50,500 nt of DNA, from IMG/VR virus record IMGVR_UViG_3300020202_000093, positions 1 to 50,500 of that record; one strand, 5' to 3'. This document shows, one piece after another, positions 26,962 through 38,979 of this stretch. Source of the stretch: a virus. Lineage: Duplodnaviria; Caudoviricetes. The notes beneath the pieces are model-generated. The model had not been told where the DNA came from, ran no database searches, and saw only the letters and a list, made by a program, of their open reading frames with translations. The stretch's first letter is position 1; every line of letters begins with the position of its first letter. A program made the translations under genes and the position numbers.

Positions 26962-27168
26962 TTACTCGATCTCGATTCCGACGCGCATGGCGTCCGCGCG
27001 CGTCAGGACGATGCCCTGCGGGTGCTCGTAGCGAGCCGACAGGCTGGAGCCCACCGGATAGACGTCCGCGTCCAGGCGCGTGACAGCCTCGCCGGTGCTG
27101 GTGTGCAGCAGGTCGACGTCTCCGTCAGCGTTGATCCGACCGAAGTACTCAGGTTTCTGGTTGTTCAT
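26962..27168 (-). CDS. Hypothetical protein
   Basis: MNNQKPEYFGRIN...; its stop is 2 nt from the next start. Confidence 0.5.
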   Translation of the reverse strand: MNNQKPEYFGRINADGDVDLLHTSTGEAVTRLDADVYPVGSSLSARYEHPQGIVLTRADAMRVGIEIE

Positions 27169-27249
27169 CTGGGTATCCTGCATTCCGGGAGGTGACCACC
27201 GGCGTCGGCCGGTGGTCAGGGTGATGTGGCAGAGCCTCACAGGACCGTC

Positions 27250-27522
27250 TCAGTCGACGTAGGTCAGGGACTGCGTCAGTCCATCGAGCGCGTACACGCG
27301 CCACTCGTTGCCTTCAGCGTCGGTGCCCCACGCGTCCAGCACGGCGTCGGCCGTGTGCTCGACATAGTCCTCCAGCCCGAGGGGCTGCAGTTCCTCGATC
27401 ATGGCTTCAATCTTGGTGTCGATGCCGGAAAGGGTTTCGTCGAGAGCGACGCGGGCAATGCAGTCGTGGCTGATTGAGCGGCGGACAGCGGCGGCGGCGG
27501 TGGTGTATGCGTTGGTGCTCAT
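27250..27522 (-). CDS. Hypothetical acidic protein, first gene of a small leftward operon
   Basis: SD GGAGGAG; DAWGTDAEGNEWRV motif. Confidence 0.65.
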   Translation of the reverse strand: MSTNAYTTAAAAVRRSISHDCIARVALDETLSGIDTKIEAMIEELQPLGLEDYVEHTADAVLDAWGTDAEGNEWRVYALDGLTQSLTYVD

Positions 27523-27592
27523 CGTCTTGCTCCTCCGCCTGTAGACCCCGGCGGACAGGTGGTCGGTATCGACCGTGGAGATAGTCTAGCGC

Positions 27593-27604
27593 GTGACATG
27601 TCAC
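27593..27604. promoter_or_regulatory. Perfect 12-bp palindrome GTGACATGTCAC, candidate operator
   Basis: Intergenic, ~70 bp upstream of the 27522 operon, which ends in a DNA-binding gene. Confidence 0.45.
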
Positions 27605-27656
27605 TGTGCGCTACCGTTCGTCGGCTGAGTCAGATTGCACCAGGCGTCGGCACCGG

Positions 27657-29222
27657 CTATGATCGGCGCCGCTCGCCGGGGGTGAGCACGATCAGGATCG
27701 GCTCAGTCAGATAGAGCACGGAGCGCGCCCCCGCTACCACAATTGGCTGACACGCGGCGACCTCGGCGACGGGGTCGCCGCTGTCGTTTTTGCGGACCGT
27801 GATTCGCTCGCCGATCAGCGTCCGCAGTGCTTGCCGAGCGCGTGCGTGGTCGCGAGTGCGGTCGGCGATATCACGCAGCAGTCCGCGCCACAGGTCGCGC
27901 AGGCCGGGCAGGATCTGAGCTGGCTGCACTGCAGCTGCACTGATCGCTGCCTGTGCCTCAGATACTGCAGTCTCCGCGGCGATCAGCTCGGCGCGGGTGC
28001 TCGGCGTGATGATCCCGGCCCGCAAAGCGGCGAGGATGTTCTCGCGCGTGCGCTCGGCATCCGCGAGCCGGCGCTTGGCGCCATCGATATCCGGCGCTGC
28101 TCGACGCAATGCGGAGGCGACACTGCGACGCAATTGGGCCATTGCAGCGGGGCTGAGCAAGCGCTCCTGTATGCCCGCGAGTAATGCGGCCTCGGCATCC
28201 CGGCGCGCGAATCGCAGCGTGCTGGTGCACGTGCCGCGGTCCTTCGCTGTGGCGCAGCCGTAGCGGTAGCGGTCGATGATGACCATGGGACCACCGCAAT
28301 CGCCGCATCGCAGGATGCCGCTCAACAGATGCGTGCACGGACGACCAGCACGACTGCTTGCTGTGTCGCGCGAAACTCCGGTTAGGCGCGCTTGTGCGGC
28401 TGACCATGTCGCGGCGTCAATGATCGCCAACTCTGGATGCTCTGTCGTGATCCACTCGGCAGACGGACGTTCCTGCCGCACACGCCTGCCGGTGTCTGGG
28501 TGCTTGACCCAGCGCGAGCGATTCCAAATCTGGCGACCGACATAGATCGGGTTAGCCAGGATGCCGATGCCGCGTCGGTGGTCTCCGTAGATCGCGGTCA
28601 TCGCCCACGTCGAGCCACGCGGAGGCGGCACGCGGTCGCGGTTGAGTCCGGCCGCTATCTGCCTCGGACTGCGGCCTGCGATGTACTCGGCATAGATGCG
28701 CCGCACGACGTCAGCACGGGCCGGATCAATCTCGCGCTGCCCTACACCCGCCACGCGGTAGCCGTACGGCAGGCCGCCAGCGCTTGCCCCGCTGAGCGCT
28801 CGGCCTGCGAGGCCGCGGTGCGTCTTGTCGGCCAAGTCGTCCAGATACAGCTCGGACATGAGCCCGCGGAGCCCGACGTCGGCTTTGTGCGACTTCCGCC
28901 CGGTATCAACGCCATCCGACACGCCGATCAACCTGACGCCGGCAAACGTGAGTCGCTTGACCGCCTTCGCTGATTCGATACTGTCTCGGCTCAGACGTGA
29001 TAGGTCGTCGACCAGAATCACGTCATAGCGTTGAGCCTCGGCCAGCAGAGATCGATAGCCCGGCCGGTCTGCACGCGCGCCGCTGATCGCAGCATCGGTG
29101 TAGGCAACAGGATCAGGCCAGCCCTGTCGGGCGCAGTAGGCGCGGCAGTTGCGGAGCTGGTCGTCAAGCGACGCTTCGCGCTGGGCATCGCTGCTGTACC
29201 TGGCATAAGCCGCGACTCTCAT
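27657..29222 (-). CDS. Large serine recombinase (phage integrase)
   Basis: YARYSS catalytic Ser, DAAISG, DLSRLSR, recombinase domain PYGY/ILANPIYVG, and zinc ribbon LLSGILRCGDCGG. Confidence 0.95.
   Translation of the reverse strand: MRVAAYARYSSDAQREASLDDQLRNCRAYCARQGWPDPVAYTDAAISGARADRPGYRSLLAEAQRYDVILVDDLSRLSRDSIESAKAVKRLTFAGVRLIGVSDGVDTGRKSHKADVGLRGLMSELYLDDLADKTHRGLAGRALSGASAGGLPYGYRVAGVGQREIDPARADVVRRIYAEYIAGRSPRQIAAGLNRDRVPPPRGSTWAMTAIYGDHRRGIGILANPIYVGRQIWNRSRWVKHPDTGRRVRQERPSAEWITTEHPELAIIDAATWSAAQARLTGVSRDTASSRAGRPCTHLLSGILRCGDCGGPMVIIDRYRYGCATAKDRGTCTSTLRFARRDAEAALLAGIQERLLSPAAMAQLRRSVASALRRAAPDIDGAKRRLADAERTRENILAALRAGIITPSTRAELIAAETAVSEAQAAISAAAVQPAQILPGLRDLWRGLLRDIADRTRDHARARQALRTLIGERITVRKNDSGDPVAEVAACQPIVVAGARSVLYLTEPILIVLTPGERRRS
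27727..27739 (+). other. Candidate attP core GCCCCCGCTACCA (3' end of initiator tRNA-Met) inside the integrase gene
   Basis: Resembles the proteobacterial tRNA-fMet 3' end including CCA; encodes VVAGA near the integrase C-terminus. Confidence 0.65.
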
Positions 29223-29512
29223 GAGTATCGGAACGACCTAAGTAGATGCTTCCAGCCCGGCTTCCCTTTGTGCTTCATCTGCCAACGAATATGCGCAGGG
29301 CATCCGAAAAATAGATGGCGTATCTTGCTCTGGTTCCCAAGAAAGATCGGGAAGGTGAATGAACCGTATGGTTCGGCATTGAGATGGAGAGGCTCGCGTT
29401 CAACCGAAATCGAGATCTGAACTAAGCCCTCCAATTCGACCGGTTTGCCAAGAGTTCCGTCCGAGTTGATCGGCTGGAAGATGGCTTTTCCGATGGGCAA
29501 CACGTAGGACAT
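29219..29512 (-). CDS. Hypothetical protein; N-terminus resembles the tail-tube N-terminus
   Basis: ATGA-coupled to the integrase; by-eye alignment to 14687-15697. Confidence 0.55.
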   Translation of the reverse strand: MSYVLPIGKAIFQPINSDGTLGKPVELEGLVQISISVEREPLHLNAEPYGSFTFPIFLGNQSKIRHLFFGCPAHIRWQMKHKGKPGWKHLLRSFRYS

Positions 29513-29539
29513 GCAACGGCTCCAAGCTAGTAGGGCAGC

Positions 29540-29698
29540 CTACGCCGCAGCGTCCAGATCGGGCAACGGCACAGGATTCGTACGCGGCTCACGCCCAGCC
29601 TGCTGCGATGCCGGCTGCGCTGTCAGATAATCCCGCACGAGAATCTCGGCCAGCGCGTCAATCAGCTCAATCTCGGCAGGTAGAAGCGGGGCGCTCAT
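29540..29698 (-). CDS. Small protein, candidate recombination directionality factor
   Basis: LIDALAEILVRDYL helix; short ORF upstream of the serine integrase. Confidence 0.5.
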   Translation of the reverse strand: MSAPLLPAEIELIDALAEILVRDYLTAQPASQQAGREPRTNPVPLPDLDAAA

Positions 29699-29700
29699 TG

Positions 29701-30687
29701 TCAGTGCACCGCGATCCGGTCCAACGGGCTCAGCGTGCCGATGCCTGGCCGCTGCATCACGTGCGTGTAAATCTGTGTCGTGCTCACGTCGGCGTGGCCG
29801 AGCAGCTCCTGCACGGTGCGGATATCGGCACCGGATTCGAGCAGGTGCGTAGCGAAGCAATGGCGTAGAGAATGCGGCGTTACTCGCTTCTCGATGCCGA
29901 CGTATCGCGCTGCGTCGCGTAGAGCGCGCTGGACTGGCCTAGCATCGAGATGATGCCGACGGACGCCGCTGCCGTCTGGGATGCGCTGATATGTCCGCGT
30001 GGCGAACAGCCATTGCCACGGCCATTCATATCGAGCGCGTGGATATTTCCGTGCGATTGCATCGGGCAGTTCAACGTCGACCATGCCGCGCTCGATGTCC
30101 AACTTGTGCAGATGTCGTCTGAAGTCGAGCTGCAGGCGCAACGCGTGCTTGGTCGACTCGGGCAAGCAAGTGATCCGGTCCTTGCCGCCCTTCCCTTGGC
30201 GCACGGTGATGATGTTCCGCTGCATGTCCACGTCTCCGACGCGCAGCCTCAAGCACTCCATCACGCGCATCCCCGTTCCGTAGAGCAGCCGGCAGATTAG
30301 GCCAGGGGTGCCGGCGATGTGCGACAGCAACGCCTGTGTCTCCTGCACGGACAGCACGGTCGGAAGGTACTGGCGCGGCTTTGCGCGGGTGATGTTATCG
30401 AGCCAGGGTAGGGCGACCCCGAGCACTTCACGGTATAGGAACAGCAGCGCGGCGAGCGCCTGGTTCTGCGTGCTCGGCGATACGTGCTGATTGACTGCGA
30501 GGTGCGACAAGAAAGCCTCTACCTCTTCAGCCGCCATATCACGAGGCGGCCGTCCGCCGTGGAAGCGGACGAACTGCACGGTCCATGCCCAGTATGTTCG
30601 CTCCGTTGAGCGAGCATAGTGTTTGGCTCTGATGCGATCGAGGAACACACTGTGCAGTGTGACCTTTGTCGTGATATTGGCGGCCAT
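29701..30687 (-). CDS. intI: Integron integrase (IntI-family tyrosine recombinase)
   Basis: VSPSTQNQALAALLFLY, LYGTGMR..E, RQGKGGKDR, the integron-specific insertion VELPDAIARKYP...WQWLF...RRHH, HSLRHCFATHLLE.G.DIRTVQELLGH and TTQIYTH; catalytic R-K-H-R-H-Y all present. Confidence 0.95.
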   Translation of the reverse strand: MAANITTKVTLHSVFLDRIRAKHYARSTERTYWAWTVQFVRFHGGRPPRDMAAEEVEAFLSHLAVNQHVSPSTQNQALAALLFLYREVLGVALPWLDNITRAKPRQYLPTVLSVQETQALLSHIAGTPGLICRLLYGTGMRVMECLRLRVGDVDMQRNIITVRQGKGGKDRITCLPESTKHALRLQLDFRRHLHKLDIERGMVDVELPDAIARKYPRARYEWPWQWLFATRTYQRIPDGSGVRRHHLDARPVQRALRDAARYVGIEKRVTPHSLRHCFATHLLESGADIRTVQELLGHADVSTTQIYTHVMQRPGIGTLSPLDRIAVH

Positions 30688-30699
30688 GTCTGGCTACTC

Positions 30700-30761
30700 A
30701 ATGAGTTACGGATCAGTCCGGTTCGTTATGCGGCGAACCCGCCGCAGAATTGGCGTTATCC
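30700..30761 (+). other. attI-like site; crossover G|TT at 30755/30756 (GTTATCC)
   Basis: GTTATCC is the exact complement of attC1 R'' (GGATAAC); no attC-type palindrome upstream; 68 bp from the intI start; GTTAY repeats at 30705 and 30725. Confidence 0.75.
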
Positions 30762-31081
30762 GACCGGCCGATCGCCTTCGCGATGGCGTTTCGAGCGGCA
30801 ATGACTTCTTGCTGCGATTCCTTCTCCTCGTCACTGAGGAAGCTCGTATAGCCGTAGCCGTCAAGTAGTGCGACGAGCGCTGCCAGCAGATCGGGCGCAG
30901 CCGAAATTAGACGTGCGTCGCCAAGCACCTCTGCATCAGCGCCTCGCGATGCACGGAAAACCTCTCGGCCGCATGGCGCGTCAACCGTTATCTCCCGCGC
31001 CATTACATGGACTTTCCACGGCCCGGGCGTATGCCGGATAACTATGGCTTCGAGCGGCGACTGTTTCGTATCTGCGTTCAT
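30713..31081 (-). CDS. Cassette 1 ORF: phage HTPGPW-type hypothetical protein
   Basis: HTPGPW...DARLISAAPDLLAAL...ARNAIAKA; starts in the attC1 loop and stops in attI. Confidence 0.8.
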   Translation of the reverse strand: MNADTKQSPLEAIVIRHTPGPWKVHVMAREITVDAPCGREVFRASRGADAEVLGDARLISAAPDLLAALVALLDGYGYTSFLSDEEKESQQEVIAARNAIAKAIGRSDNANSAAGSPHNEPD

Positions 31082-31123
31082 GGTTGATCCTTCGCGGCGT
31101 CGCCGCTCAAGCCGGCGTTGTAT
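31036..31123 (+). other. attC1 (88 bp)
   Basis: GGATAAC-tatgg-CTTCGAGC...GCTCAAG-ccggc-GTTGTAT. Confidence 0.85.
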
Positions 31124-31401
31124 TGCAATCCGAGCGCCTTCGCGGCCTTGGCCTCATGGTGCCGGCAGTGCAGCAATGCCTCGTCATGGAACCCATGCTC
31201 AATTGCATCTGCGGTTAGGCTCAGCCCGCCGAGCAGACACAGAAGCTCGGAGCGTAGTCGCACAATCTCAGCGCGGCACTCGCTCGGATTGGTTGGCAGC
31301 GACCGTAAGCAGTCGTAACACATGGTCTCGCCGTTCATGAACGTCGGCATGTGCCCCGTCGCCTCACAGTAATCGCACTTTTTAATCGGTGGTTCGCGCA
31401 T
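31078..31401 (-). CDS. Cassette 2 ORF: zinc-finger-like hypothetical protein
   Basis: CDYC...CYDC; SD GAGG; stops in the attC1 loop. Confidence 0.7.
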   Translation of the reverse strand: MREPPIKKCDYCEATGHMPTFMNGETMCYDCLRSLPTNPSECRAEIVRLRSELLCLLGGLSLTADAIEHGFHDEALLHCRHHEAKAAKALGLQYNAGLSGDAAKDQP

Positions 31402-31418
31402 TGGCGCCTCGCGTTGCA

Positions 31419-31508
31419 ATACAACTATGCGTTCAAAAAGGACCGCGCTGGTGTTAGGTCGCTTCGTCCGGTTGCCCCGGCGCGCGGCCTTTTAACGCGG
31501 CGTTATCC
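31419..31508 (+). other. attC2 (90 bp)
   Basis: ATACAAC-tatgc-GTTCAAAA...TTTTAAC-gcggc-GTTATCC. Confidence 0.9.
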
Positions 31509-31789
31509 GGCTCTTCATCCAGCTTGCGGCCTTCCGCTTCCCAGTCCACCAGATGCCACCAGGCGATCTCAAAGCACCGCTGCGGTGTGCGGAACGGAAA
31601 CCCGCGCAGGTTCTCCATGTGTGGCTTGCGACGGCATCGCATCCACGGGGGGCCGTACTCAGGACCATCGCTGTCGTCAAACAGCCCTTCGCAGTTCTCG
31701 CACGTCGCAGGCACTGGGTTTCCCGCATGGTCCAGCGCAAGCGGGATAACTGTGCGTTGAACCGGACCGCTCTTAGGCGTCGATTCCAT
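31454..31789 (-). CDS. Cassette 3 ORF: Cys-containing hypothetical protein
   Basis: CENC...C...NLRGFPF...C; starts in the attC3 loop and stops in attC2. Confidence 0.7.
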   Translation of the reverse strand: MESTPKSGPVQRTVIPLALDHAGNPVPATCENCEGLFDDSDGPEYGPPWMRCRRKPHMENLRGFPFRTPQRCFEIAWWHLVDWEAEGRKLDEEPDNAALKGRAPGQPDEAT

Positions 31790-31831
31790 ACCTAACCCTC
31801 GGTTTCGCGGCCGGTTGACGCAGCGTTATGC
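31744..31831 (+). other. attC3 (88 bp)
   Basis: GGATAAC-tgtgc-GTTGAACC...GGTTGAC-gcagc-GTTATGC. Confidence 0.85.
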
Positions 31832-32103
31832 GTCTTGATCGGTTGAACATCGACCACGCGATAGTTCAGCACGTGGCGCTCATCGACTCCGCAGCAGATA
31901 CATGCAACCACTTCCGCGCCTTCGCTGTGTAGGCTTTGCCTTGCCGGGGTTTGCACTGGCACATCAACCCAACTATTCGAGTGCAGCCGCCCAATTACCT
32001 TGTGCACATACATCTCGTTTGGAACGCCATAGCGCTTTTGTTCAATCAGTGCGTAATCACCAAAGTCCATGTCTTCTCTTTCTTCGTAGTCACCCAACCG
32101 CAT
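31792..32103 (-). CDS. Cassette 4 ORF: hypothetical protein
   Basis: ATG inside R'' of attC4, 2 nt after the upstream TAG; GDYALIEQKRYGVPNEMY.HKVIG. Confidence 0.7.
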   Translation of the reverse strand: MRLGDYEEREDMDFGDYALIEQKRYGVPNEMYVHKVIGRLHSNSWVDVPVQTPARQSLHSEGAEVVACICCGVDERHVLNYRVVDVQPIKTHNAASTGRETEG

Positions 32104-32184
32104 AACTATGCGTTTGACCGACCGCCACTGGCATTCGGCGCGTTGTCTGCGCCGCGCTGGCGGTCGTTCAACGCGGCGTTCGGC
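32100..32184 (+). other. attC4 (85 bp)
   Basis: GCATAAC-tatgc-GTTTGACC...GTTCAAC-gcggc-GTTCGGC. Confidence 0.85.
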
Positions 32185-32405
32185 GCCAATCTCAACTTCC
32201 CCTCGGCCCTCCACATTCGGAGAAGCCGGAGGTCTTCGATTCTGTAGTACCAGCCTCGGTGCTTCCCATGGATAGCGACGACCACTTGATACGTGTCGAC
32301 GATTGCGCGAATGTGAAGTGTGCAGTTGTTTGGATTGCCGGCTGAAAGTCGCAGCCGGTAGGCGCGCCCGACGATAGGGGTGAAGTCGTCAGCGCCCCGT
32401 GCCAT
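32106..32405 (-). CDS. Cassette 5 ORF b: hypothetical protein
   Basis: GNPNN..LHIRAIVD..QVV; reads through attC4. Confidence 0.7.
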   Translation of the reverse strand: MARGADDFTPIVGRAYRLRLSAGNPNNCTLHIRAIVDTYQVVVAIHGKHRGWYYRIEDLRLLRMWRAEGKLRLAPNAALNDRQRGADNAPNASGGRSNA

Positions 32406-32407
32406 GG

Positions 32408-32713
32408 TTAAAACTGCTCGCAGCCGGGCGCCACATGCTCGTTATCGACTGGCGGTTGCGGCGGCGGCGGCAGTTCCAGCCCGATGCCAATACAGCCCTC
32501 CTCCGGGTACTCGGTGGAATAAACGACATAACGGTAGTGAGAAACAGAATCCGGGTCAGTTTCCTCGCCTTCGTTTCTCGCACCTTCCGGCGGGTAGGCG
32601 GCGATGGTGAACTCTGCATCGAGTTCGTCGTCGGTCGGGGTGGTAGCGTCATCGATCATCAGCCCGGCAAAACGGGCCAAGTCGCGGATTTCTGCAACGG
32701 TCAAGGTAAGCAT
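32408..32713 (-). CDS. Cassette 5 ORF a: acidic hypothetical protein
   Basis: SD GAGGA; LTVAEIRDLARFAGL...EYPEEGCIGIG. Confidence 0.75.
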   Translation of the reverse strand: MLTLTVAEIRDLARFAGLMIDDATTPTDDELDAEFTIAAYPPEGARNEGEETDPDSVSHYRYVVYSTEYPEEGCIGIGLELPPPPQPPVDNEHVAPGCEQF

Positions 32714-32749
32714 TATTTATTCCTCATGGCTTTGGTCTGTCGTGTTGGC

Positions 32750-32836
32750 GCCGAACTATGCGTTTAACCGGACGCCGGAAAAGTATCTGGCTTCGAGCCA
32801 GCGTCCGGGCCGGCGCCGGTTAACGCGGCGTTAGCC
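32750..32836 (+). other. attC5 (87 bp)
   Basis: GCCGAAC-tatgc-GTTTAACC...GGTTAAC-gcggc-GTTAGCC. Confidence 0.9.
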
Positions 32837-33088
32837 ATCAATGGCAGCCAATGCGTCGGCCAGCGTTTTGCGCACAAGGCTCAGCGCCTCAGCCTTCGCT
32901 TCGTCGGCGCCTTTGCTGTTCAGCGGTTTCCCGTCAAAGAACGGGGAAGCGTTCAATACCCAAACGTCCGGCGGGTGGTAAATGTGCCGAGTCACCACCA
33001 CCCGCAACAAGCCGGCTTCTGATTGGTATGTTCTTGGCGTGCGATCAGTCTCGCCCTGCCGTCGGCTCGTGATGTCTTTCCACTGCAT
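32831..33088 (-). CDS. Cassette 6 ORF: hypothetical protein (alternative start 33154 in the attC6 loop)
   Basis: SD GAGGA before MQWKDITS; stop TAA lies within R' of attC5. Confidence 0.75.
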   Translation of the reverse strand: MQWKDITSRRQGETDRTPRTYQSEAGLLRVVVTRHIYHPPDVWVLNASPFFDGKPLNSKGADEAKAEALSLVRKTLADALAAIDG

Positions 33089-33108
33089 GCTACGTTCCTC
33101 GTGTTGAT

Positions 33109-33195
33109 GACTAACTATGCGTTTAACCGGACGCCGGAACGTTGCTCGGCTCATCCGGGCCTTTCTTGCCGGCGCCGGTTGGCGCGGCGTTGTAC
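33109..33195 (+). other. attC6 (87 bp; two mismatches in L')
   Basis: GACTAAC-tatgc-GTTTAACC...GGTTGGC-gcggc-GTTGTAC. Confidence 0.8.
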
Positions 33196-33196
33196 G

Positions 33197-33949
33197 TCAT
33201 AGCATGCTCTCCTGCACCGGCGGGGCTTCAACAGCAGGCAGCGGCAATTCCTGGCGTTGCCGCGCGCCAGTTATGCGTGGCACCGCGATGCCGTTGAAGT
33301 ATTCGGCCTCACGCTCGATGCCAATGAATCGCCGCCCCTCGATGTGCGCAGCTTCGCCTGTTGTCCCGCTTCCCATGAAGCAATCCATAACCATGTCGCC
33401 CGGCTTTGTTGTCAGCCGGATAAGGTGGCGCATAAGGTCTACGGGCTTTTCGGCTGCGTGCTCGGTAGTCTTGTTGTTTCCCGCCATCCACTTGCAGCGG
33501 TAAATGTCGGTTGCGCTCCGATTCTCGATTTTGGCTTTCGGCATGCCGGCGAGAAACACAACTTCGTACGTCGGCCGGAGTTGGCGCGGCCCAGCAGGGC
33601 CGATCCATTCCTTGTCCCATATCAGCAGTGAATCCACAGGCCACTTGATCTTGCTAAAGGCATAAAGCAGCGTAGGTATGCTGCGCCAGTTTCCGAACAC
33701 GCAGGCATACCCTTCTTGCTTCAATGTCCGGCGCGCACGTTTCAGCCACTCTGCGAACCACCATGCGCTATTTCCCATGTCGGCCCAACCGCCGGCCTTC
33801 GCGCTTGCGTCGCCAGTGGAGATTGCGCCTATCATGTATGGCGGGTCGGTTATAACGGCGTCAACGCTCATTGGCGGCAGTTCCGCCATAACGTCAAGGC
33901 AATCGCCGTGCCACAGTTCCGCATTTCCAATGATTACTTTTTCGGCCAT
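33197..33949 (-). CDS. Cassette 7 ORF: orphan N6A/N4C DNA methyltransferase (beta class)
   Basis: GDCLDV, TDPPY, H.AEKPV.L, DCFMGSGTTG and FIGIE motifs. Confidence 0.92.
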   Translation of the reverse strand: MAEKVIIGNAELWHGDCLDVMAELPPMSVDAVITDPPYMIGAISTGDASAKAGGWADMGNSAWWFAEWLKRARRTLKQEGYACVFGNWRSIPTLLYAFSKIKWPVDSLLIWDKEWIGPAGPRQLRPTYEVVFLAGMPKAKIENRSATDIYRCKWMAGNNKTTEHAAEKPVDLMRHLIRLTTKPGDMVMDCFMGSGTTGEAAHIEGRRFIGIEREAEYFNGIAVPRITGARQRQELPLPAVEAPPVQESML

Positions 33950-33960
33950 GTCGTGGTTAC

Positions 33961-34053
33961 GTACAACTATGCGTTCAAGCCGACCCTGCGGAGTCAGCGG
34001 TGTCGTTCTGCCCGTTCGTGGCCGCCGCAGGGCGGCTTAACGCGGCGTTAGCG
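33961..34053 (+). other. attC7 (93 bp, the most canonical site)
   Basis: GTACAAC-tatgc-GTTCAAGC-cgaccctgcgg...ccgcagggcg-GCTTAAC-gcggc-GTTAGCG. Confidence 0.93.
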
Positions 34054-34326
34054 GGCATTGATTGCGTTGCCGCAAGTGTTGGCGGCGACGGCTTTAGCGT
34101 GGAAATGGTCGCCATCTCGCTTCATTGTCCGCGCATACTCGACCGCCTTCTCAAAGCACACCTTCGCGCACGCCTCGCGCTCGGCCTTCACCTGCCGGGC
34201 AACTTCGGCGTGGATCGCAGCAAGCGTTCGCTGCGCTAATCCGTCTTCGGTGTCATGGGATCGCCCTTCCTCGCCCTCTGCGTAGGCGGCATCCCAGTAG
34301 GTGCTTAGTAGTTCATCAAGCGTCAT
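34048..34326 (-). CDS. Cassette 8 ORF: phage AEREAC-type hypothetical protein
   Basis: YWDAAYAEG, AEREACAKVC...CGNAINAR; SD GAGGG overlaps R'' of attC8. Confidence 0.75.
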   Translation of the reverse strand: MTLDELLSTYWDAAYAEGEEGRSHDTEDGLAQRTLAAIHAEVARQVKAEREACAKVCFEKAVEYARTMKRDGDHFHAKAVAANTCGNAINAR

Positions 34327-34335
34327 TGCATCGCC

Positions 34336-34423
34336 CTCTAACTATGCGTTCGACCCGCCCCGACCATCCGGCGCAGCATCGTCTTTGGCCTCGCCCTCGG
34401 GGCGGTTCAACGCGGCGTTGAGC
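34336..34423 (+). other. attC8 (88 bp)
   Basis: CTCTAAC-tatgc-GTTCGACC...GTTCAAC-gcggc-GTTGAGC. Confidence 0.85.
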
Positions 34424-34424
34424 G

Positions 34425-34757
34425 TCATCGGCAAGCGTCCTGCATATTCAGGAAGCGAATAAGCCCGCCCCTATCAGTGGGAACGTCTATCCGTTCTATG
34501 CCGCTCGGCTCTTTGTATCGCTCAGGGTCTGACGCCAGGTATTCACGAAGCTTTCTTGCAGCGTCACGGCGGCTCGAAAAATATTCGATGAGCCGCCCAT
34601 CCACCATTGAGCCTTCGTCAATGCACCAGATTCGCCATAACTTCATGTCGATGTCCTCGCAGTGACGCCCAACAAGCCGTTTAAGCGGGCTGCCTGTATG
34701 CGTTTCGCGCAGCCGACCAACTATGGGTTTGAGCGGCTTCTGTTGTGCCTTGCTCAT
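34425..34757 (-). CDS. Cassette 9 ORF: hypothetical protein (internal start 34646 with SD GAGGA likely)
   Basis: MKLWRIW...VPTDRGGLIRFLN; the N-terminal extension is encoded by two attC left arms. Confidence 0.7.
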   Translation of the reverse strand: MSKAQQKPLKPIVGRLRETHTGSPLKRLVGRHCEDIDMKLWRIWCIDEGSMVDGRLIEYFSSRRDAARKLREYLASDPERYKEPSGIERIDVPTDRGGLIRFLNMQDACR

Positions 34758-34796
34758 GCTTGCTTCTCCGTGTCGCCGATCAAGCCAGCGTCAATG
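34667..34796 (+). other. Truncated attC9 (left arm only) fused to degenerate attC10 (34715-34796, R' = GTC)
   Basis: GCCCAAC-aagcc-GTTTAAGC, then GACCAAC-tatgg-GTTTGAGC...GATCAAG-ccagc-GTCAATG. Confidence 0.65.
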
Positions 34797-34972
34797 GCCG
34801 TTCCTGATGCAACGTCAACAATTAAGCGAAGGCGATTGCGATGTGTCTGAGCTTCTGTCCGGAGCCGGATAATCTCGTCGGCAGCTATCCTCAGCTGAGT
34901 TCGCAGGGCCTCCTTCCTCGGTTGCTTGATCCGCCTGGGCAACTTCGGGAACAGATCGGATCCGCGGCTCAC
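34754..34972 (-). CDS. Hypothetical early protein; C-terminus lies in degenerate attC10
   Basis: Coupled at both ends; ends IDAGLIGDTEKQA. Confidence 0.6.
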   Translation of the reverse strand: MSRGSDLFPKLPRRIKQPRKEALRTQLRIAADEIIRLRTEAQTHRNRLRLIVDVASGTAIDAGLIGDTEKQA

Positions 34973-35229
34973 GCATCAACTCCGAGATAGCGCAGATCAA
35001 TCTCATCGACCTTGTTGCGCAGCATGTTCCGTGCTCCGCGAACTACCCTAGCGATCGTTAGTCGACTCTCAAAATCGGAGAACGTCGCGAGGCCGAGATT
35101 GACCTTTCCGGTCAAGTCTCGACGGAACAGGCGATAGACCAGAATGCGTCGGTCTGGATCGAAGAGGCGCCCCCAACTGAATCGGCTCGACTTGCCCGGC
35201 TGGCGCGGGATGAGTTGTCGGTTACGCAT
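34969..35229 (-). CDS. Hypothetical early protein
   Basis: MRNRQLIPRQPG..SRFSWGR; coupled. Confidence 0.6.
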   Translation of the reverse strand: MRNRQLIPRQPGKSSRFSWGRLFDPDRRILVYRLFRRDLTGKVNLGLATFSDFESRLTIARVVRGARNMLRNKVDEIDLRYLGVDA

Positions 35230-35380
35230 TCGCGAAATCCATCTCTGCAATCGGTGTATTGAAGAGGTCTGGCGTGTAGGGGGTGCGCTGTTGCGGATCT
35301 GGCGGAGCGAGTCCGCACTTGTCAGGTGTGTCGCACTCAATCTTCCCTGCACAGATGAAGCAGTCGCCAGTCAGGTTCAT
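35222..35380 (-). CDS. Small Cys-rich hypothetical protein
   Basis: CFICAGKIECDTPDKC; ATGA-coupled. Confidence 0.45.
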   Translation of the reverse strand: MNLTGDCFICAGKIECDTPDKCGLAPPDPQQRTPYTPDLFNTPIAEMDFANA

Positions 35381-35868
35381 GCGGTCGCTCGTATGGTTGG
35401 ACGCGCTTGATAGGTGCGCGGACGATGGGACGGGGGTTCGCACAGTTCTGCCCACGTGCGTCGCCCATAAAAGCGGAGGCGGCCTTCCAGCGTGGAGTCC
35501 TTTACGCTCGCGGGGACTCGGCTGCGGATCTGGGTGAACGTCATCAGCTCACCATCGATTTCGTAGACCGTGGTCTTGCGTGGGACCGTGAGTCCTTCAG
35601 CTTCGATCCAGCTGCGCACTGTTCTCCGCGGGATGCCGAGTGCGGTGCTGACCTCCGACAGTGACGCGCCGGAGACGAAGCGCTGGATAGCGCGATCGCG
35701 GCATTGATCCGGCCATCCCTTGCGATGTGGCGCCAGCTTCACGCGCGCTCGCGCTGCTGCGCGGCGGACAGAATCAACGCTGCGGCCCGTCTTGCGAGCG
35801 ATCTGCGCAGCGGTCAGGTCTGGTCTGAGCAATGCCACCTCGGTGGTCTTCCAATGCCGCATGTTCAT
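35377..35868 (-). CDS. Multi-HTH DNA-binding protein
   Basis: TAAQIARKTGRSVDSV and SLSEVSTALGIPRRTVRSW. Confidence 0.7.
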   Translation of the reverse strand: MNMRHWKTTEVALLRPDLTAAQIARKTGRSVDSVRRAAARARVKLAPHRKGWPDQCRDRAIQRFVSGASLSEVSTALGIPRRTVRSWIEAEGLTVPRKTTVYEIDGELMTFTQIRSRVPASVKDSTLEGRLRFYGRRTWAELCEPPSHRPRTYQARPTIRATA

Positions 35869-36503
35869 GCCGGCACCTCGAACCGTTCCGGCAAGTGTTG
35901 CTGAGCGAAGCGGTAGAAATCCGCTGCCAGCACCGCGCAGTCGTCGGCGAGCCCTGGATAGCGGTGCTGTTCCAGCCGATGCCCGCCGTGAACGACATAG
36001 TGCGATTCGTCGGCGCTAGCGTTGATGTCGCGAAGCATCGTGTCAGATGCTTCTCGCACTTCGAAAACGTTCCAGCGGAATCGATCGGCTTGGAAGAGTT
36101 CTAGGTACAGGCGCCACTGGTAGCCGGCGAAGTAGCCTTCGGCGTCCATCTGCGCAGTCGTCTTGTGATCGTCGATGCGGCGGCCTAGGATGCTGTCGAC
36201 TTGGCCGCTGACACTCAGGCATCCGCCATCGACTATGTATGCCTTGCTGGCTCGGAGTTCTCGGATCAGTGGCAGTTCGAGTTCAATGTCGGCTTGCACA
36301 TGGAACACGAAGCCATTGGCGCGCAGCGTGTCGAACTCGCCAGGCTCGGCCAGTTCAAGCGCGCGATGGAACGCAGTGCCAGCGGCCATGTGCTCGCTCG
36401 GCCGTTCCTGCCCGCGCAGGTGTGCGAGCAGGGCGTCGAGACTGGCGTCGTCATCCTCTCGCCAGCGGCGGAAGGACTCCAGTTCCGAGACGCGCGCAAG
36501 CAT
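35865..36503 (-). CDS. PD-(D/E)XK-like exonuclease (partner of Sak4)
   Basis: AGTAFHRALE, SGQVD...IDDHKTT and YQWRLYL; downstream of the AAA_24 ATPase. Confidence 0.7.
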   Translation of the reverse strand: MLARVSELESFRRWREDDDASLDALLAHLRGQERPSEHMAAGTAFHRALELAEPGEFDTLRANGFVFHVQADIELELPLIRELRASKAYIVDGGCLSVSGQVDSILGRRIDDHKTTAQMDAEGYFAGYQWRLYLELFQADRFRWNVFEVREASDTMLRDINASADESHYVVHGGHRLEQHRYPGLADDCAVLAADFYRFAQQHLPERFEVPA

Positions 36504-36506
36504 GGC

Positions 36507-37409
36507 TTAAGCGGCCTTTGCCGGCGCTGCATAGCGCGCTGCGGCCTTGTCGAAGGCCAAGCCTAGCTTGGTGGCTCGGTCATGCAGGAGAGCCGCTACG
36601 GTCTTCCCAGCGGCCTTGGCGTCGACGATGGCGGCGTTGATCGAGTCGGCATCTTCCATGCCGGCAATGTCCGCGCGCCAGCGCTCGAGCGTTTCCTGCG
36701 CTGCGCGCTGTTCTTCGGTCAGCGTGTTGAGCCGATCCTTGGTCTGCTGGATTACGCTGGCGAGGAAGCCGGCGAACTCCGGGCGGTCGCAGTGCGGAAT
36801 CTGCAACGCTTCCAGCTGGCCAGGATTCTTCCCGAACGCCGCATCGCTCGGTGAGAAATTCAGGACGCGCTGACCGTTTCGGATCGTGATCCGCCCCATC
36901 GCATCAGCTGCTTTGTAAATCTCGCCTTTGCTGCCGCCCTGAACGTCGAGCCGTTCAATCACTTCGTCGCCGTTGCGCTGCTCGTCCATGTGCGCGATCA
37001 GTACGACATCCTTGCCGAAGCCGTTCAGCAGCTTGAGGAACGAGATGAACCGCGCCTTGAGTTCGCCGAAGCCCTGCAGCGTCAGTGCGCCGCCGCGTCC
37101 CAGCTTCGCGTTCCCGCGAATAATGTCGGCGGCTAGAACGTCAAGCGCTCTGCCGGCCGTGTCCATGATAATGGTCTGAAAGTCGGCCAAGTCGTCCGCG
37201 GTGATGTTTGCGACATCTTCCCAGCGATCGACCAGCACAGCGTCTTTGCGGCCGTGTGCGCGATGCGCACCGCGGTCGAAGTCAAGCAGCAGCGGGCGAT
37301 CTGCGGTGAAGGCGAGGGAGGTCTTGCCCAGCCCTGGTGGGCCATAGATGACGATGTTCAGGCGATCGACGCGGATCGGGTCTGCGGCGCGGACGATTCG
37401 GAGGGACAT
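36507..37409 (-). CDS. Sak4-like (AAA_24) recombination ATPase
   Basis: IYGPPGLGKTSLA, LLLDFDRG, TIIMDT and VVLIAH motifs. Confidence 0.85.
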   Translation of the reverse strand: MSLRIVRAADPIRVDRLNIVIYGPPGLGKTSLAFTADRPLLLDFDRGAHRAHGRKDAVLVDRWEDVANITADDLADFQTIIMDTAGRALDVLAADIIRGNAKLGRGGALTLQGFGELKARFISFLKLLNGFGKDVVLIAHMDEQRNGDEVIERLDVQGGSKGEIYKAADAMGRITIRNGQRVLNFSPSDAAFGKNPGQLEALQIPHCDRPEFAGFLASVIQQTKDRLNTLTEEQRAAQETLERWRADIAGMEDADSINAAIVDAKAAGKTVAALLHDRATKLGLAFDKAAARYAAPAKAA

Positions 37410-37429
37410 GATTGATTCCTGTGTTGGGG

Positions 37430-37608
37430 TGGATGCGGGCCGGTCGCTAGCCGGCGTCCTTGTACTTCGGGCGGACTCGGGTTCCCAAGGTTGCGTGCAC
37501 CCTACGGAGCACTCCCGACCTCGATGCGCGGGTTCAGCGGGAGCCCCCACCTATGCCGTCATCCGTGTCTGTAGTCCCGCGTGTCTGCATATCCACGCCG
37601 CCGCATCC
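37430..37608 (-). ncRNA. tRNA-like structured RNA element (not a canonical tRNA)
   Basis: 8-bp closing stem, a 5-bp D-like arm, and a 5-bp/7-nt T-like arm stacked on the closing stem; fills the intergenic gap. Confidence 0.5.
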
Positions 37609-37616
37609 GTTGATCG

Positions 37617-38117
37617 TTACGCCGCTTGCTGCAGTTCAGCCACTGGCGGGAGGACGCTGAGTTCGATGTCGCGCTGCTGCAGGCTGCACAGCACGCCCTG
37701 CTCGTGGACGTCGGGATGGACCGCAGCCGAGAACGTGATCGCAACCGAGCCGCCTTCGAGCGGTTCGATGACGAAGCGCTTCAGCGTCGCGGCCTCGAAC
37801 GTCAGCACGTCGGACAAATCCAGCCCTGTGTGGATTTCGAGGCGATAGCCCGGCCACTCATCCTGCAGGCGCAACGGTTCCAGGCGCGGGAACCGAACTG
37901 CGGTCAATTGCTCAGGATCAAGCAGGTCTTGCTGGTCGCCGAGACGCGGCTTGCGAAACAGTGCGGCGCGCAGTTCCGGGTCGATCGAATCGAGGATGCC
38001 GCTGTTCGCATGGAGTTCGAACTTGATATCGCCGGCATCTTCGAGTTCGTCGCCGCAGCGTTCCTTGCGCGGGTTATAGTTCGCGAGCTTGGTCTTGACT
38101 TTCGTCAGCTCGAACAT
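37617..38117 (-). CDS. Conserved phage hypothetical protein
   Basis: YNPRKERCGDE...DIKF...LDSIDPELRAALF...EPLEGGSV. Confidence 0.75.
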   Translation of the reverse strand: MFELTKVKTKLANYNPRKERCGDELEDAGDIKFELHANSGILDSIDPELRAALFRKPRLGDQQDLLDPEQLTAVRFPRLEPLRLQDEWPGYRLEIHTGLDLSDVLTFEAATLKRFVIEPLEGGSVAITFSAAVHPDVHEQGVLCSLQQRDIELSVLPPVAELQQAA

Positions 38118-38121
38118 GGCG

Positions 38122-38352
38122 TTAGCCCTCGGCCTGCGATTCGGTTGCCGGCTCGTCGACAGCCTTCTCGATCTCGACACCAGCGCGGGCCAGATCGAAC
38201 ACCGCCGATTGATTCGCGACACTGACGACGAAGCGGCTGCGCGCGGCGAAGTTCAGCGCTTGCTGTTTGTTCGCTGCGCTGATCAGGCGCGGCTTGGCGT
38301 CAAGCGTCAGCTTGTCCTGTACGGCGTAGAGTCGGGTGGTTGCGTTTCTCAT
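38122..38352 (-). CDS. Hypothetical protein
   Basis: RLYAV...RLISAANKQQAL...GVEIE; SD AGGAG. Confidence 0.7.
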   Translation of the reverse strand: MRNATTRLYAVQDKLTLDAKPRLISAANKQQALNFAARSRFVVSVANQSAVFDLARAGVEIEKAVDEPATESQAEG

Positions 38353-38715
38353 TGGTGCTCCTGTGGGGCGGGGAAAAGCGGAACCAGAGATCGGCTCCGC
38401 GGGATCGGAAGGTGAGTCAGCCGAGGTGGCAGGGTGCTCAGAGCGGCCTGTATACGCGTTCCGGCCTTTGCCCTTAGTGCATGCTCCGGGTCGCGCGCCA
38501 AGCCTGTCCTACGCAGTTGCAGGCGGTATGCCGCGGTTCGGTCAATAACGGTTGTGCTCATGCCGGCTTCCACGTCCAACTACGCGCATGTCCTGCTCGG
38601 CCGTGCCGGTTCCATTCGCGAAGCACGACGCCTGCCGCTTGTTCGGGGGTGCGCGCCCATGCGAGGGACTCGTACGTCTTGCCTGTGCTTAGGTTGAGCG
38701 TGATGCGATAGGCGT

Positions 38716-38979
38716 TCACGCGGCCCCCGGTAGATCGTCGCTGCCGATGTTGATCGCTGCATCCACGGCACGCCGAGCAGCGCGATCAACCGTCTCGCCA
38801 GCGCGGAAGAACTTGGCAGCGGCACGTGACGCGCCGCAGGCGAGGGCACGGCATCCGTACTGGATCATCCGGTTGTGCGCTATTCGCCGAGCGGCGAACT
38901 CGCGAGCTTCCTGCAGTTCGTACGGACCAGGGCCTGCATTGGCGTTGGCGGGGCGGAGCAGGGGGACGATCGTGCTCAT
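38716..38979 (-). CDS. Hypothetical protein
   Basis: ATGA-coupled in the early-left operon. Confidence 0.55.
   Translation of the reverse strand: MSTIVPLLRPANANAGPGPYELQEAREFAARRIAHNRMIQYGCRALACGASRAAAKFFRAGETVDRAARRAVDAAINIGSDDLPGAA

What the first reader, a model, noticed from the sequence alone, without database searches (positions are those of the whole stretch)
30713..34796. attC sites double as coding sequence: swappable in-frame C-terminal tails, stops and coupled starts
Seen: five cassette ORFs have no stop inside their own cassette. They cross the crossover in the same frame (AAC GC = Asn-Ala) and end in the neighbouring site: DNANSAAG.. (attI), YNAGLSGD.. (attC1), DNAALKGR.. (attC2), HNAASTGR.. 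(attC3) and PNAALNDR.. (attC4). I translated attC5-8 in that frame, and each also gives a 22-25 aa open tail with a stop in L'' or at R'', although not currently used. Several sites also hold the next start codon coupled to that stop: ATGA at 31078-31081 and 34754-34757, TAG-GT-ATG at 31794-31787, and TAG-TT-ATG at 32108-32101. This produces recurring attC-encoded N-terminal motifs (PLEAIVI, PVQRTVI, PVKRIVS, PLKPIVG). Inference: the sites are selected so that any cassette order keeps termination and translational coupling, and shuffling also exchanges protein C-termini.
Basis: partly seen in the sequence, partly recalled or inferred. Interest (0 to 1): 0.9.

Follow-up and report, generated by a model that had tools for sequence, protein, structure and literature searches.

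The report
Phage integron with backward-facing gene cassettes
A soil phage carries a complete integron whose nine gene cassettes all point the opposite way to normal, so their proteins start and end inside the recombination sites and get a different tail depending on the neighbouring cassette.

Summary
The window is a complete 50.5 kb tailed temperate phage. It holds an integron: intI (29701-30687, -), attI, and nine Xanthomonadales-type attC hairpins (31036-34796, top strand = +).

All cassette genes lie on the attC bottom strand, the reverse of ordinary integrons. Each gene therefore has its own attC upstream and the crossover at its 3' end.

Conserved attC boxes close two of the three phases: TGA at -8 and TAA inside R'. 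Only genes in the AAC (Asn) phase lack their own stop, and these finish in the neighbouring site.

The shared frame, the stop placement and the PLERIV-like N-terminal motifs are also found in 177 bacterial attCs, whose genes lie mostly on the other strand. They are by-products of the site consensus, not evidence of design.

Homologous cassettes in other arrays carry different tails after N-A. Start codons with Shine-Dalgarno sequences in attC loops lie beside the AAC-phase stop more often than chance predicts.

The same reversed layout occurs in 42 other viral loci. I found no description of it in print. I rate it a new variant of a known kind.

The parts
29701..30687 (-). intI, integron integrase (328 aa)
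   Evidence: TIGR02249 scores 421.9 bits against a cut-off of 265 and covers profile positions 6-315 of 315. Pfam families PF00589 and PF13495 also match. It is 50-54% identical to five bacterial IntI proteins taken from the genome-contig loci (L037, L017, L053, L054, L030), and R149, K169, H272, R275, H298 and Y307 are invariant.
30688..30761 (+). attI, with the crossover G|TT at 30755-30757 (GTTATCC). It also encodes the last 13 aa of ORF1 on the minus strand
   Evidence: It forms an 8-nt perfect inverted repeat with R'' of attC1. ORF1 reads DN|ANSAAGSPHNEPD through it and stops 25 nt upstream of the intI ATG.
30713..31081 (-). Cassette 1 gene (122 aa, PF27050/phrog_1273 family). Its start and Shine-Dalgarno sequence lie in the attC1 loop and its tail lies in attI
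   Evidence: phrog_1273 E = 1.7e-13; the profile ends at about the crossover. Homologues are mostly 90-99 aa (one of 157), begin M..HTPGPW and end at AIAKA..G. The window protein has 12 extra N-terminal and 13 extra C-terminal residues.
31036..31123 (+). attC1. It holds the stop of ORF2 and the start of ORF1 as an ATGA overlap
   Evidence: R1 77.3 bits. Hairpin fold.
31078..31401 (-). Cassette 2 gene (107 aa). Its tail AGLSGDAAKDQP lies in attC1
   Evidence: The GAGG Shine-Dalgarno sequence before the ATG at 31401 was read.
31419..31508 (+). attC2
   Evidence: R1 68.2 bits.
31454..31789 (-). Cassette 3 gene (111 aa, Cys-rich phage family). Its start lies in the attC3 loop and its tail in attC2
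   Evidence: 74 homologues at E up to 0.001. The alignment shows a conserved core followed by variable ends. The same family occurs as a cassette in 5 metagenome arrays and 1 viral array.
31744..31831 (+). attC3
   Evidence: R1 76 bits.
31792..32103 (-). Cassette 4 gene (phrog_18349 family). Its tail AASTGRETEG lies in attC3
   Evidence: phrog_18349 E = 3.9e-27. 125 homologues share a core ending YR..DV, followed by variable tails.
32100..32184 (+). attC4
   Evidence: R1 66.6 bits.
32106..32405 (-). Cassette 5, distal gene (99 aa, orphan). Its 24-aa tail lies in attC4
   Evidence: No homologue other than itself. Tail.
32408..32713 (-). Cassette 5, proximal gene (101 aa)
   Evidence: ORF. The GAGGA Shine-Dalgarno sequence was read.
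32750..32836 (+). attC5
   Evidence: R1 78.3 bits.
32831..33154 (-). Cassette 6 gene. Its stop is the TAA inside the R' box
   Evidence: phase f2, offset -1.
33109..33195 (+). attC6
   Evidence: R1 76.5 bits.
33197..33949 (-). Cassette 7 gene: N6/N4 DNA methyltransferase with its own TGA 8 nt before AAC
   Evidence: PF01555 E = 9.9e-38. phrog_67 E = 1.1e-59. Stop register.
33961..34053 (+). attC7
   Evidence: R1 69.4 bits. The minus strand folds with two single-base bulges on its 3' arm.
34048..34326 (-). Cassette 8 gene (92 aa). Its stop is the TAA inside R'
34336..34423 (+). attC8
   Evidence: R1 75.9 bits.
34425..34757 (-). Cassette 9 gene with its own TGA at -8. The start is either in the attC9 loop (34757) or at 34647
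   Evidence: The GAGGA Shine-Dalgarno sequence before 34647 was read.
34715..34796 (+). attC9, the last site, with a degenerate R' (GTC in place of GTT)
   Evidence: R1 60.8 bits and R2 44.4 bits. Sequence.
34754..34972 (-). The first gene beyond the array (72 aa). Its last 12 residues are encoded by attC9, and its stop overlaps the attC9-loop ATG as ATGA
   Evidence: Its tail IDAGLIGDTEKQA resembles the attC1 tail NAGLSGDAAKDQP.
27657..29222 (-). Large serine recombinase, probably the phage's own integrase for lysogeny. This is context, not part of the integron
   Evidence: phrog_95 integrase E = 1.2e-83. It also matches CcrB- and XisF-like NCBIfam models below their cut-offs.

Best explanation
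This is a complete integron carried by a temperate tailed phage. It lies between the phage's serine integrase and its early recombination genes.

The relation of intI, attI and attC is the ordinary one: intI diverges from the attC top strand. But every cassette gene lies on the attC bottom strand. The genes therefore run in the same direction as the phage early genes and as intI. They are presumably transcribed as part of that leftward operon and not from a Pc promoter.

This reversed polarity has two consequences. Each mobile unit is 'own attC, then gene' on the coding strand. And the crossover cuts at the very 3' end of the gene.

The conserved extended R box carries a TGA 8 nt before AAC and, when R' is GTTA, a TAA across the box. 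Genes in those two phases end with their own stop, packed against the boundary. Genes in the third phase, where AAC is an Asn codon, have no stop of their own. They read on into whatever site lies next until that site's loop or its L''/R'' box supplies a stop. This adds 1-25 residues that change when the neighbour changes.

Some attC loops have acquired a Shine-Dalgarno sequence and a start codon. The first 12-15 residues of the cassette's own protein are then encoded by the L''/R'' arm in its only open frame.

Where a loop holds a start, the AAC-phase stop usually lies next to it. This would couple translation across the hairpin.

Shown: the anatomy, the polarity, the generic nature of the frame and stop features, the tail differences between arrays, and one cassette that has changed neighbours.

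Inferred: transcription, translation of the tails, translational coupling, and IntI activity.
For: The element is a phage.
- It encodes a large terminase, portal, major head protein, tape measure, serine integrase, Sak4-like protein and DnaB.
- The record is rated 100% complete.
- A contig of run X1 closes the circle.

It is an integron.
- IntI scores above the TIGR02249 cut-off.
- Nine hairpins share a consensus structure, and 8 of its 17 pairs show compensatory changes.
- No other attC lies in the window.
- Inverted repeats of 4-12 nt flank each cassette.

Polarity.
- The + strand carries the unpaired extra bases on the R''/L'' arm.
- In a class 1 integron control, model R1 hits the same strand as the aadA genes, just downstream of them.
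- Bacterial relatives show the same intI/attC relation.
- In bacterial arrays with the same attC type, gene calls are 75 top strand, 10 bottom strand and 44 uncalled out of 129 cassettes. In the window, 7 of 7 are bottom strand.
- The minus-strand ORFs have PHROG, Pfam or sequence homologues.
- L185 and L186 hold an identical gene with the 5' attC 98% identical and the 3' attC 62% identical. The switch falls at the AAC on both sides.

Phases, from 151 unique attCs.
- Viral arrays other than L137: 57 AAC-phase run-throughs, 1 run-through in f1, 20 with TAA in R', 25 with their own stop (16 of them TGA at -8), 23 unclear, and 0 with top-strand coding.
- T at -8 and G at -7 are conserved in all classes and also in bacterial sites.

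Generic features.

Tails.

Coupling.
- 23 of 95 attCs have the stop within -4 to +10 nt of the start, against 8.3 +/- 2.5 in 2000 permutations, none of which reached 23.
- 16 of the 26 loop starts meet the same criterion.

The class is wider than this phage.
- R2 gives 174 hits in 80 viral IntI loci, and 171 lie on the strand opposite intI.
- In 54 of the 68 loci with gene calls, upstream genes run only in the same direction as intI.
- 4 of 5 records checked encode a large terminase.
Against: - No expression data exist. No RNA run holds the sequence. The sigma-70 scan found no promoter in 29000-40000. The operon reading is therefore inferred from gene order alone.
- No rearranged junction was seen. 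A second soil sample holds pieces of the array (30175-31447, 31614-32167, 33042-35094) identical to the window. Contigs drop rare variants, however.
- The association of stop and start is stronger than a pure by-product model predicts, so some selection on the loops is likely.
- AAC-phase genes almost never have their own stop (2 of 63), although a stop at -6 would fit the R' consensus. I cannot explain this.
- Gene calls outside the window rest on a codon model trained on this window. It is weaker for the loci with lower G+C. 23 sites stayed unclear.
- Related phages share cassettes, so the counts are not fully independent.
- The strand that recombines has not been tested.
Confidence: 0.75

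Rival explanations
1. The attC sequences themselves have been shaped by selection as coding sequence, so that any cassette order preserves termination and translational coupling. This would be a standard reading-frame interface between cassettes.
For: - AAC-phase run-through is the commonest 3' end: 61 of 111 phased ORFs.
- The AAC-phase stop lies at the loop start codon in 16 of 26 sites, 7 of them as ATGA overlaps. This holds in some sites whose present upstream gene has its own stop.
- In short attCs the AAC phase stops at +6 in 17 of 57.
- attC lengths that are multiples of three are rare. Such lengths would fuse neighbouring ORFs in frame.
Against: - The closing of two phases, the stops in L''/R'' and the PLERIV frame are equally present in 177 bacterial attCs, whose called genes lie mostly on the other strand.
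- Termination inside the site is no more frequent in phages (51 of 61) than in bacteria (153 of 177); Fisher P = 0.67.
- 10 of 57 read beyond the site.
- Only 28 of 95 downstream genes start inside the attC.
- The phase distribution is close to the codon-phase expectation for AAC.
- The rarity of lengths divisible by three is shared with bacteria, 6 of 177, where lengths cluster at 82 and 83.
Confidence: 0.2
2. The array is a frozen relic. IntI or the sites no longer work, and the run-through tails are accidents fixed in one lineage with no current exchange.
For: - The pieces of the array that a second soil study holds are identical to the window.
- The last site has a degenerate R', and its tail has become a fixed part of the neighbouring gene.
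- No excision junction was seen.
Against: - IntI is full-length and the catalytic-type residues are invariant.
- R'/R'' complementarity is perfect for 7-12 nt in six cassettes.
- An identical cassette is found next to different neighbours in L185 and L186.
- Relatives of the cassettes carry different tails.
Confidence: 0.12
3. The polarity is mis-assigned. On this view the minus strand is really the attC top strand, so the genes are in the normal orientation and the element is an unusual inverted type.
For: attC sites are near-palindromes, and model R1 was trained on the + strand, so its preference for that strand within the window is by construction.
Against: - Independent controls give the same polarity: the class 1 array L005, the canonical array L137, and bacterial relatives with intI.
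- In 80 viral loci, 171 of 174 R2 hits lie on the strand opposite intI.
- In L185 and L186, the hairpin that travels with the gene is the one 5' of it.
- The Shine-Dalgarno sequence and start of ORF1 and ORF3 lie in that same hairpin.
Confidence: 0.03
4. The minus-strand ORFs are shadows of a G+C-rich sequence, and the real cassette genes, if any exist, are on the + strand.
For: The region is about 59% G+C and has many overlapping ORFs on both strands.
Against: - The minus-strand ORFs match phrog_1273, phrog_18349, PF01555/phrog_67 and a family with 74 members.
- The codon model prefers the minus strand in 7 of 7 cassettes.
- Shine-Dalgarno sequences precede their starts.
Confidence: 0.02

Closest known systems
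Classical integrons (class 1 and chromosomal integrons of Xanthomonadales/Lysobacterales)
   Same: IntI of the TIGR02249 family. attI lies next to the 5' end of intI. attC hairpins have R''/L''/L'/R' boxes and bulged bases. intI diverges from the attC top strand. The attC type is the one found in 82 bacterial loci, mostly Lysobacterales.
   Different: All genes lie on the attC bottom strand: 9 of 9 here, against 10 of 85 called genes in bacterial arrays. They point towards intI. No Pc-like promoter was found. The cargo consists of phage gene families.
ORF-11 and ORF-18 of attI1 in class 1 integrons (as described in the review PMC8876359; passages read)
   Same: A translated ORF spans the crossover point. 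It takes its stop codon from the neighbouring cassette's core site and promotes translational coupling with the next gene.
   Different: Those are short leader peptides on the top strand of attI. Here the C-termini of the cassette proteins themselves cross the crossover, on the bottom strand and at every junction.
Short ORFs inside attC that relieve the stem-loop barrier by termination-reinitiation (work summarised in PMC8876359, section 3.2; passages read)
   Same: attC hairpins in the mRNA are translated, and a stop followed by a restart inside the site is proposed to help the downstream cassette.
   Different: That work concerns top-strand transcripts of resistance cassettes. Here the loop holds the real start of the cassette's own protein, and the upstream protein ends there.
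Phage-borne integrons and CALINs (Qi et al. 2023, PMC9892861; outline and passages read)
   Same: Complete integrons and attC clusters occur in phage genomes.
   Different: That study found 3 complete integrons in 10,705 NCBI phage genomes, mostly captured pieces of host or class 1 integrons. The passages shown to me do not discuss which strand the genes lie on.
Inverted-integrase integrons (described in the methods of PMC13323075; passage read)
   Same: intI and the cassette genes are transcribed in the same direction.
   Different: In that type, intI and attC lie on the same strand. Here intI and attC are on opposite strands, as in the regular type, and only the genes are turned.

Membership tests
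Integron (complete) | Integron-type tyrosine recombinase IntI | tested here: met
   TIGR02249 scores 421.9 bits against a cut-off of 265, over the full profile length. In 14 control genomes no match passed the cut-off.
Integron (complete) | attC sites: imperfect hairpins with R''/L''/L'/R' boxes, an unpaired central spacer and bulged bases on one arm | tested here: met
   There are nine sites. The consensus has 17 pairs, 8 with compensatory changes, and unpaired columns 16 and 23 on the + strand 5' arm. R1 and R2 hit only these nine sites.
Integron (complete) | attI beside the 5' end of intI, with a GTT crossover that joins the first cassette | tested here: met
   GTTATCC at 30755 forms an 8-nt inverted repeat with R'' of attC1. 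IntI binding sites within attI were not analysed.
Integron (complete) | intI divergent from the attC top strand (regular type) | tested here: met
   intI is on the - strand and the attC top strand is +. Bacterial loci L017, L030 and L037 show the same arrangement.
Integron (complete) | Cassette genes on the attC top strand, expressed from Pc next to attI | tested here: not met
   All 10 cassette ORFs are on the bottom strand. There are 0 sigma-70-like sites in 29000-40000. This is a usual property of integrons rather than a defining one. Bacterial arrays here also show 10 of 85 called genes on the bottom strand.
Integron (complete) | Cassettes are mobile units exchanged at the G|TT of R' | tested here: inconclusive
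   Not shown for this window: a second sample holds identical pieces of the array and no rearranged junction. Shown for a related cassette: in L185 and L186 the neighbours differ from exactly the crossover onward.
Integron (complete) | Recombination of the folded bottom strand by IntI | not testable with these tools
   This needs strand-specific attC x attI assays.
Inverted-integrase integron | [quoted passage not shown] | tested here: not met
   They are on opposite strands.

The most novel reading that the evidence does not exclude
Phage integrons form a distinct and widespread class with reversed cassette polarity. The attC hairpin lies inside the mRNA at each gene junction. It supplies the end of one protein and the ribosome-binding site, start codon and first residues of the next. 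Cassettes without their own stop share one reading phase, with AAC read as Asn. Together this gives phages a plug-in system for building translationally coupled operons of accessory genes. Because ordinary phage genes appear to have been trimmed to their conserved cores when they became cassettes, these arrays could also show how cassettes are made, which is still unknown.
Probability: 0.35. Interest if true: 0.8.

Novelty: new variant of a known kind. Interest (0 to 1): 0.62.

Why it matters
Integrons are known mainly as bacterial platforms that express captured genes from one promoter, with each gene followed by its recombination site. Here a complete phage uses the same machinery with the genes turned round. 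The same layout occurs in dozens of other viral records.

This has several implications:
- Phages may have their own pool of cassettes. The recognisable cargo here is phage gene families and DNA methyltransferases.
- Expression depends on the phage operon and not on Pc.
- The recombination sites become part of the coding and translation-initiation sequence.
- Moving a cassette changes the C-terminus of its neighbour's protein.
- Gene callers and integron finders that assume top-strand genes will mis-describe such arrays.

The comparison of cassette and non-cassette copies of the same gene families is also useful. The genes appear trimmed exactly to the R boxes. This gives concrete material for the open question of how cassettes arise.

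Tried and rejected
1. Expression. No RNA holder is listed for 29600-35300, so I could say nothing on expression.

2. Laying contigs of two DNA runs. No joint falls at an attC crossover. Loose ends at 31155 and 33211, seen in both runs, lie 37 and 21 nt away from crossovers. They look like a diverged relative, and I could not interpret them.

3. Sigma-70 scan. It found 0 promoter-like sites, which is uninformative for phage or non-sigma-70 promoters.

4. Close relatives of IntI. A single-protein search of viral contigs found none. An alignment of IntI proteins was needed.

5. A universal codon-position model for gene calling was too weak. I used a codon log-likelihood trained on 9 long window genes instead.

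6. I first took the near-absence of f1 run-through ORFs (1 against 61; P = 1.5e-7 against codon-phase expectation) as a sign of selection for the AAC phase. I rejected this when the own-stop class turned out to be mostly f1-phase genes ending at a conserved TGA at -8. With those included, the phases are 63:24:24. The phase labels f1 and f2 printed for own stops were swapped by my script, and I corrected them.

7. ORF5a has no homologue, so its tail could not be compared. None of the window's cassette proteins except the methyltransferase has a relative in the loci held.

8. Rows dropped.
- One search kept 189 of 218 pattern-defined sites, after removing identical sequences and sites without flank.
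- One search kept 151 of 171 hits, removing identical sequences, hits with no AAC at positions 3-9, and hits with less than 260 nt of flank.
- Only the best 150 of the 174 R2 hits entered the alignment used.
- Only the best 80 of the 247 viral IntI loci were returned.

Supplements of papers were closed. The look-up of encoding contigs was not used because it is closed.

Full report
OBSERVATION

- Five minus-strand ORFs reach the crossover without a stop. They read AAC-GCN across it and end in attI, attC1, attC2, attC3 and attC4, with tails of 13, 12, 15, 10 and 23 residues after the Asn.
- attC5-8, read in the same phase, give tails of 22-25 residues ending in L'' or R''.
- The four stop-start junctions lie at the stated coordinates.
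- Two of the four attC-encoded N-termini are doubtful, those at 33154 and 34757. Better Shine-Dalgarno plus ATG pairs lie downstream of them. The ATG at 32103 has no Shine-Dalgarno sequence, and the source's own gene call starts 11 codons later.

WHAT IT IS

The window is a whole virus record rated 100% complete.
- It encodes a large terminase, portal, major head protein, tape measure, serine integrase, Sak4-like annealing protein and DnaB helicase.
- A contig of one run joins its two ends.
- The ORF at 29701-30687 (-) is an integron integrase. TIGR02249 scores 421.9 bits against a cut-off of 265.
- Nine related hairpins follow on the + strand. Their consensus structure has 17 pairs, 8 with compensatory changes.
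- Covariance models built from these hairpins find nothing else in the window.
- Each cassette is bracketed by an inverted repeat of 4-12 nt, made of the R' half left at the previous site and its own R''.
- An exact pattern scan shows that the attC type is the one found in Lysobacterales chromosomes: 82 loci and 274 model hits.

POLARITY

The + strand carries the extra unpaired bases on the R''/L'' arm. I checked what this means with controls, not from memory.
- In a class 1 integron on a P1 phage record, model R1 hits the same strand as the aadA genes, immediately downstream of them.
- In bacterial loci that also hold intI (L017, L030, L037), the attC strand relative to intI is the same as in the window.
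- In bacterial arrays with this attC type, a codon model genes on the top strand, 10 on the bottom strand and none in 44 of 129 cassettes. In the window it of 7 on the bottom strand.
- The minus-strand ORFs are real genes. They match phrog_1273/PF27050, phrog_18349, a DNA methyltransferase and a 74-member Cys-rich family.

So the integron platform is regular, but all ten cassette genes face intI.

The clearest proof of the unit comes from two metagenome contigs, L185 and L186.
- They hold an identical ORF3-family gene.
- The hairpin 5' of the gene is 98% identical between them. It differs only before its AAC.
- The hairpin 3' of the gene is 62% identical. It diverges right after the AAC.

WHY THE ORFs CROSS THE CROSSOVER IN ONE FRAME

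With reversed polarity, the crossover lies at the 3' end of the gene.

On the bottom strand of 177 unique bacterial attCs:
- The phase one base on from AAC is closed within 12 nt in 170.
- The next phase is closed within 12 nt in 131, mostly by the TAA of GTTA.
- The AAC phase runs on but stops inside the site in 153.

I then classed 151 unique attCs from the window and from viral arrays. Outside the canonical array L137, the viral sites show:
- 57 AAC-phase run-throughs. Of these, 17 stop at +6, 30 stop elsewhere inside the site and 10 stop beyond it.
- 1 run-through in the second phase.
- 20 with TAA in R'.
- 25 with their own stop. 21 of these are in the second phase, and 16 are exactly TGA at -8.
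- 23 unclear.
- 0 with top-strand coding.

A position table shows that T at -8 and G at -7 are conserved in all classes and in bacterial sites. The TGA is therefore part of the extended R box.

Counting own stops, the phases are 63:24:24. This is close to how AAC falls in the window's long genes, 121:43:79 (P = 0.047). The common frame is thus forced, not chosen.

The PLEAIVI-type motifs have a similar cause. They are the only open frame through L''/R'', which reads RLERIV or PLERIV in bacterial sites. 145 of the 177 have the other two frames closed.

Tails do change with the neighbour.
- ORF1's relatives are mostly 90-99 aa (one of 157). They begin at M..HTPGPW and end at AIAKA..G. The window protein adds 12 residues from attC1 and 13 from attI.
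- ORF4's family has a core ending YR..DV followed by free tails. One relative ends HN|AESIHPESKL.
- ORF3's relatives end PN|A twice, then PN|AG, PN|AD, PN|AGGKRSDD and HN|LNSETPHVK. Others end with a TAA in R', or as ordinary non-cassette genes with their own ends.

Coupling also has support.
- Of 95 attCs with a called downstream gene, 28 hold its start inside the site.
- The AAC-phase stop lies within -4 to +10 nt of the start in 23 of the 95. Permutation gives 8.3 +/- 2.5, and none of 2000 permutations reached 23.
- Of the 26 loop starts, 16 meet this criterion, 7 of them as ATGA overlaps, and most have strong Shine-Dalgarno sequences.
- Termination is not assured, however. It is no better than in bacterial sites (Fisher P = 0.67).

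A WIDER CLASS

- An IntI alignment finds 247 viral contigs with relatives, of which the best 80 were returned.
- Model R2 gives 174 hits in these 80 loci, and 171 lie on the strand opposite intI.
- In 54 of the 68 loci with gene calls, all genes within 4 kb upstream run with intI. Only L136 and L137 have more divergent genes than co-directional ones.
- L137 is an ordinary array with top-strand genes, which serves as an internal control.
- Methyltransferase homologues lie on the intI strand in ten of these loci.
- Of five records checked, four encode a large terminase and three a portal. Four are rated 95-100% complete.

COMPARISON WITH WHAT IS KNOWN

- Translated ORFs that span the crossover and borrow a stop from the next cassette are known for ORF-11 and ORF-18 of attI1. 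Short ORFs in attC are proposed to allow termination-reinitiation (review PMC8876359, passages read).
- Phage-borne integrons have been reported: 3 complete ones in 10,705 genomes (PMC9892861, outline and passages read).
- Two platform types are recognised, regular and inverted-integrase (PMC13323075, passage read).
- Seven full-text searches found no description of arrays whose genes all lie on the attC bottom strand, or of cassette proteins ending in the neighbouring site.
The claim of novelty is therefore limited.

CAVEATS

- There is no evidence of transcription or translation.
- IntI activity and strand choice are untested.
- Gene calls outside the window depend on a codon model trained on the window.
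- Related phages share cassettes, so the counts overstate independence.
- The null I used for the loop-start test, one quarter, is a rough estimate of my own.

Noticed in passing
window 34715-34972: The last site, attC9, has GTC in place of GTT in R'. The gene beyond the array (34754-34972) ends with 12 residues encoded by this decayed site (IDAGLIGDTEKQA, compare the attC1 tail NAGLSGDAAKDQP). This looks like a site-encoded tail that has become a fixed part of a protein.
   Followed up: partly
window 34668-34732: A possible extra short hairpin with AAC...GTT ends lies just left of attC9 and overlaps its R''/L'' box. Its translation, PLKRLVG, resembles the L''/R'' frame. Neither covariance model reports it.
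   Followed up: no
bottom strand positions -8 to -6 relative to the R' AAC, all arrays: T at -8 and G at -7, and often A at -6, are conserved beyond the 7-base R' box, in phage cassettes and also in 177 bacterial ones. The R box consensus therefore seems to extend to about 11 bases and contains a TGA.
   Followed up: partly
attC sites, window and loci L006-L085: The distance from the R'' AAC to the R' GTT is rarely a multiple of three: 0 of 8 in the window and 6 of 177 in bacteria. In bacteria the lengths cluster at 82 and 83, so the cause may be structural and unrelated to reading frame.
   Followed up: partly
Viral contigs: 247 viral contigs encode IntI relatives at 40-61% identity. Many matches lie at contig ends, as if assemblies break inside the repeated attC arrays.
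   Followed up: partly
L095, L111, L155, L159, L160, L161, L169-L171, L173: DNA methyltransferase genes recur just upstream of intI in many phage arrays, on the same strand as intI. This is consistent with anti-restriction cargo.
   Followed up: no
L131:118-989: Three near-identical attC hits lie about 390 nt apart upstream of intI, with no gene call between them. They may be gene-less cassettes.
   Followed up: no
L137 (a record labelled viral, 48 kb): An ordinary integron with about 20 attCs and top-strand genes sits in a record classed as viral. It may be host DNA at a provirus border. It served here as a control for canonical polarity.
   Followed up: partly
window 27000-38000, run X1: One 44.6 kb contig leaves the stretch at 38000 and re-enters at 27000, with 39,372 letters between. 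The total is about 50.4 kb, so the genome assembles as a circle or is circularly permuted.
   Followed up: no
window 31155 and 33211: In both soil runs, one contig matches up to 31155 and another matches from 33211, each continuing in unlike sequence. Neither point is a crossover. A diverged relative of the phage may be present in both samples.
   Followed up: no
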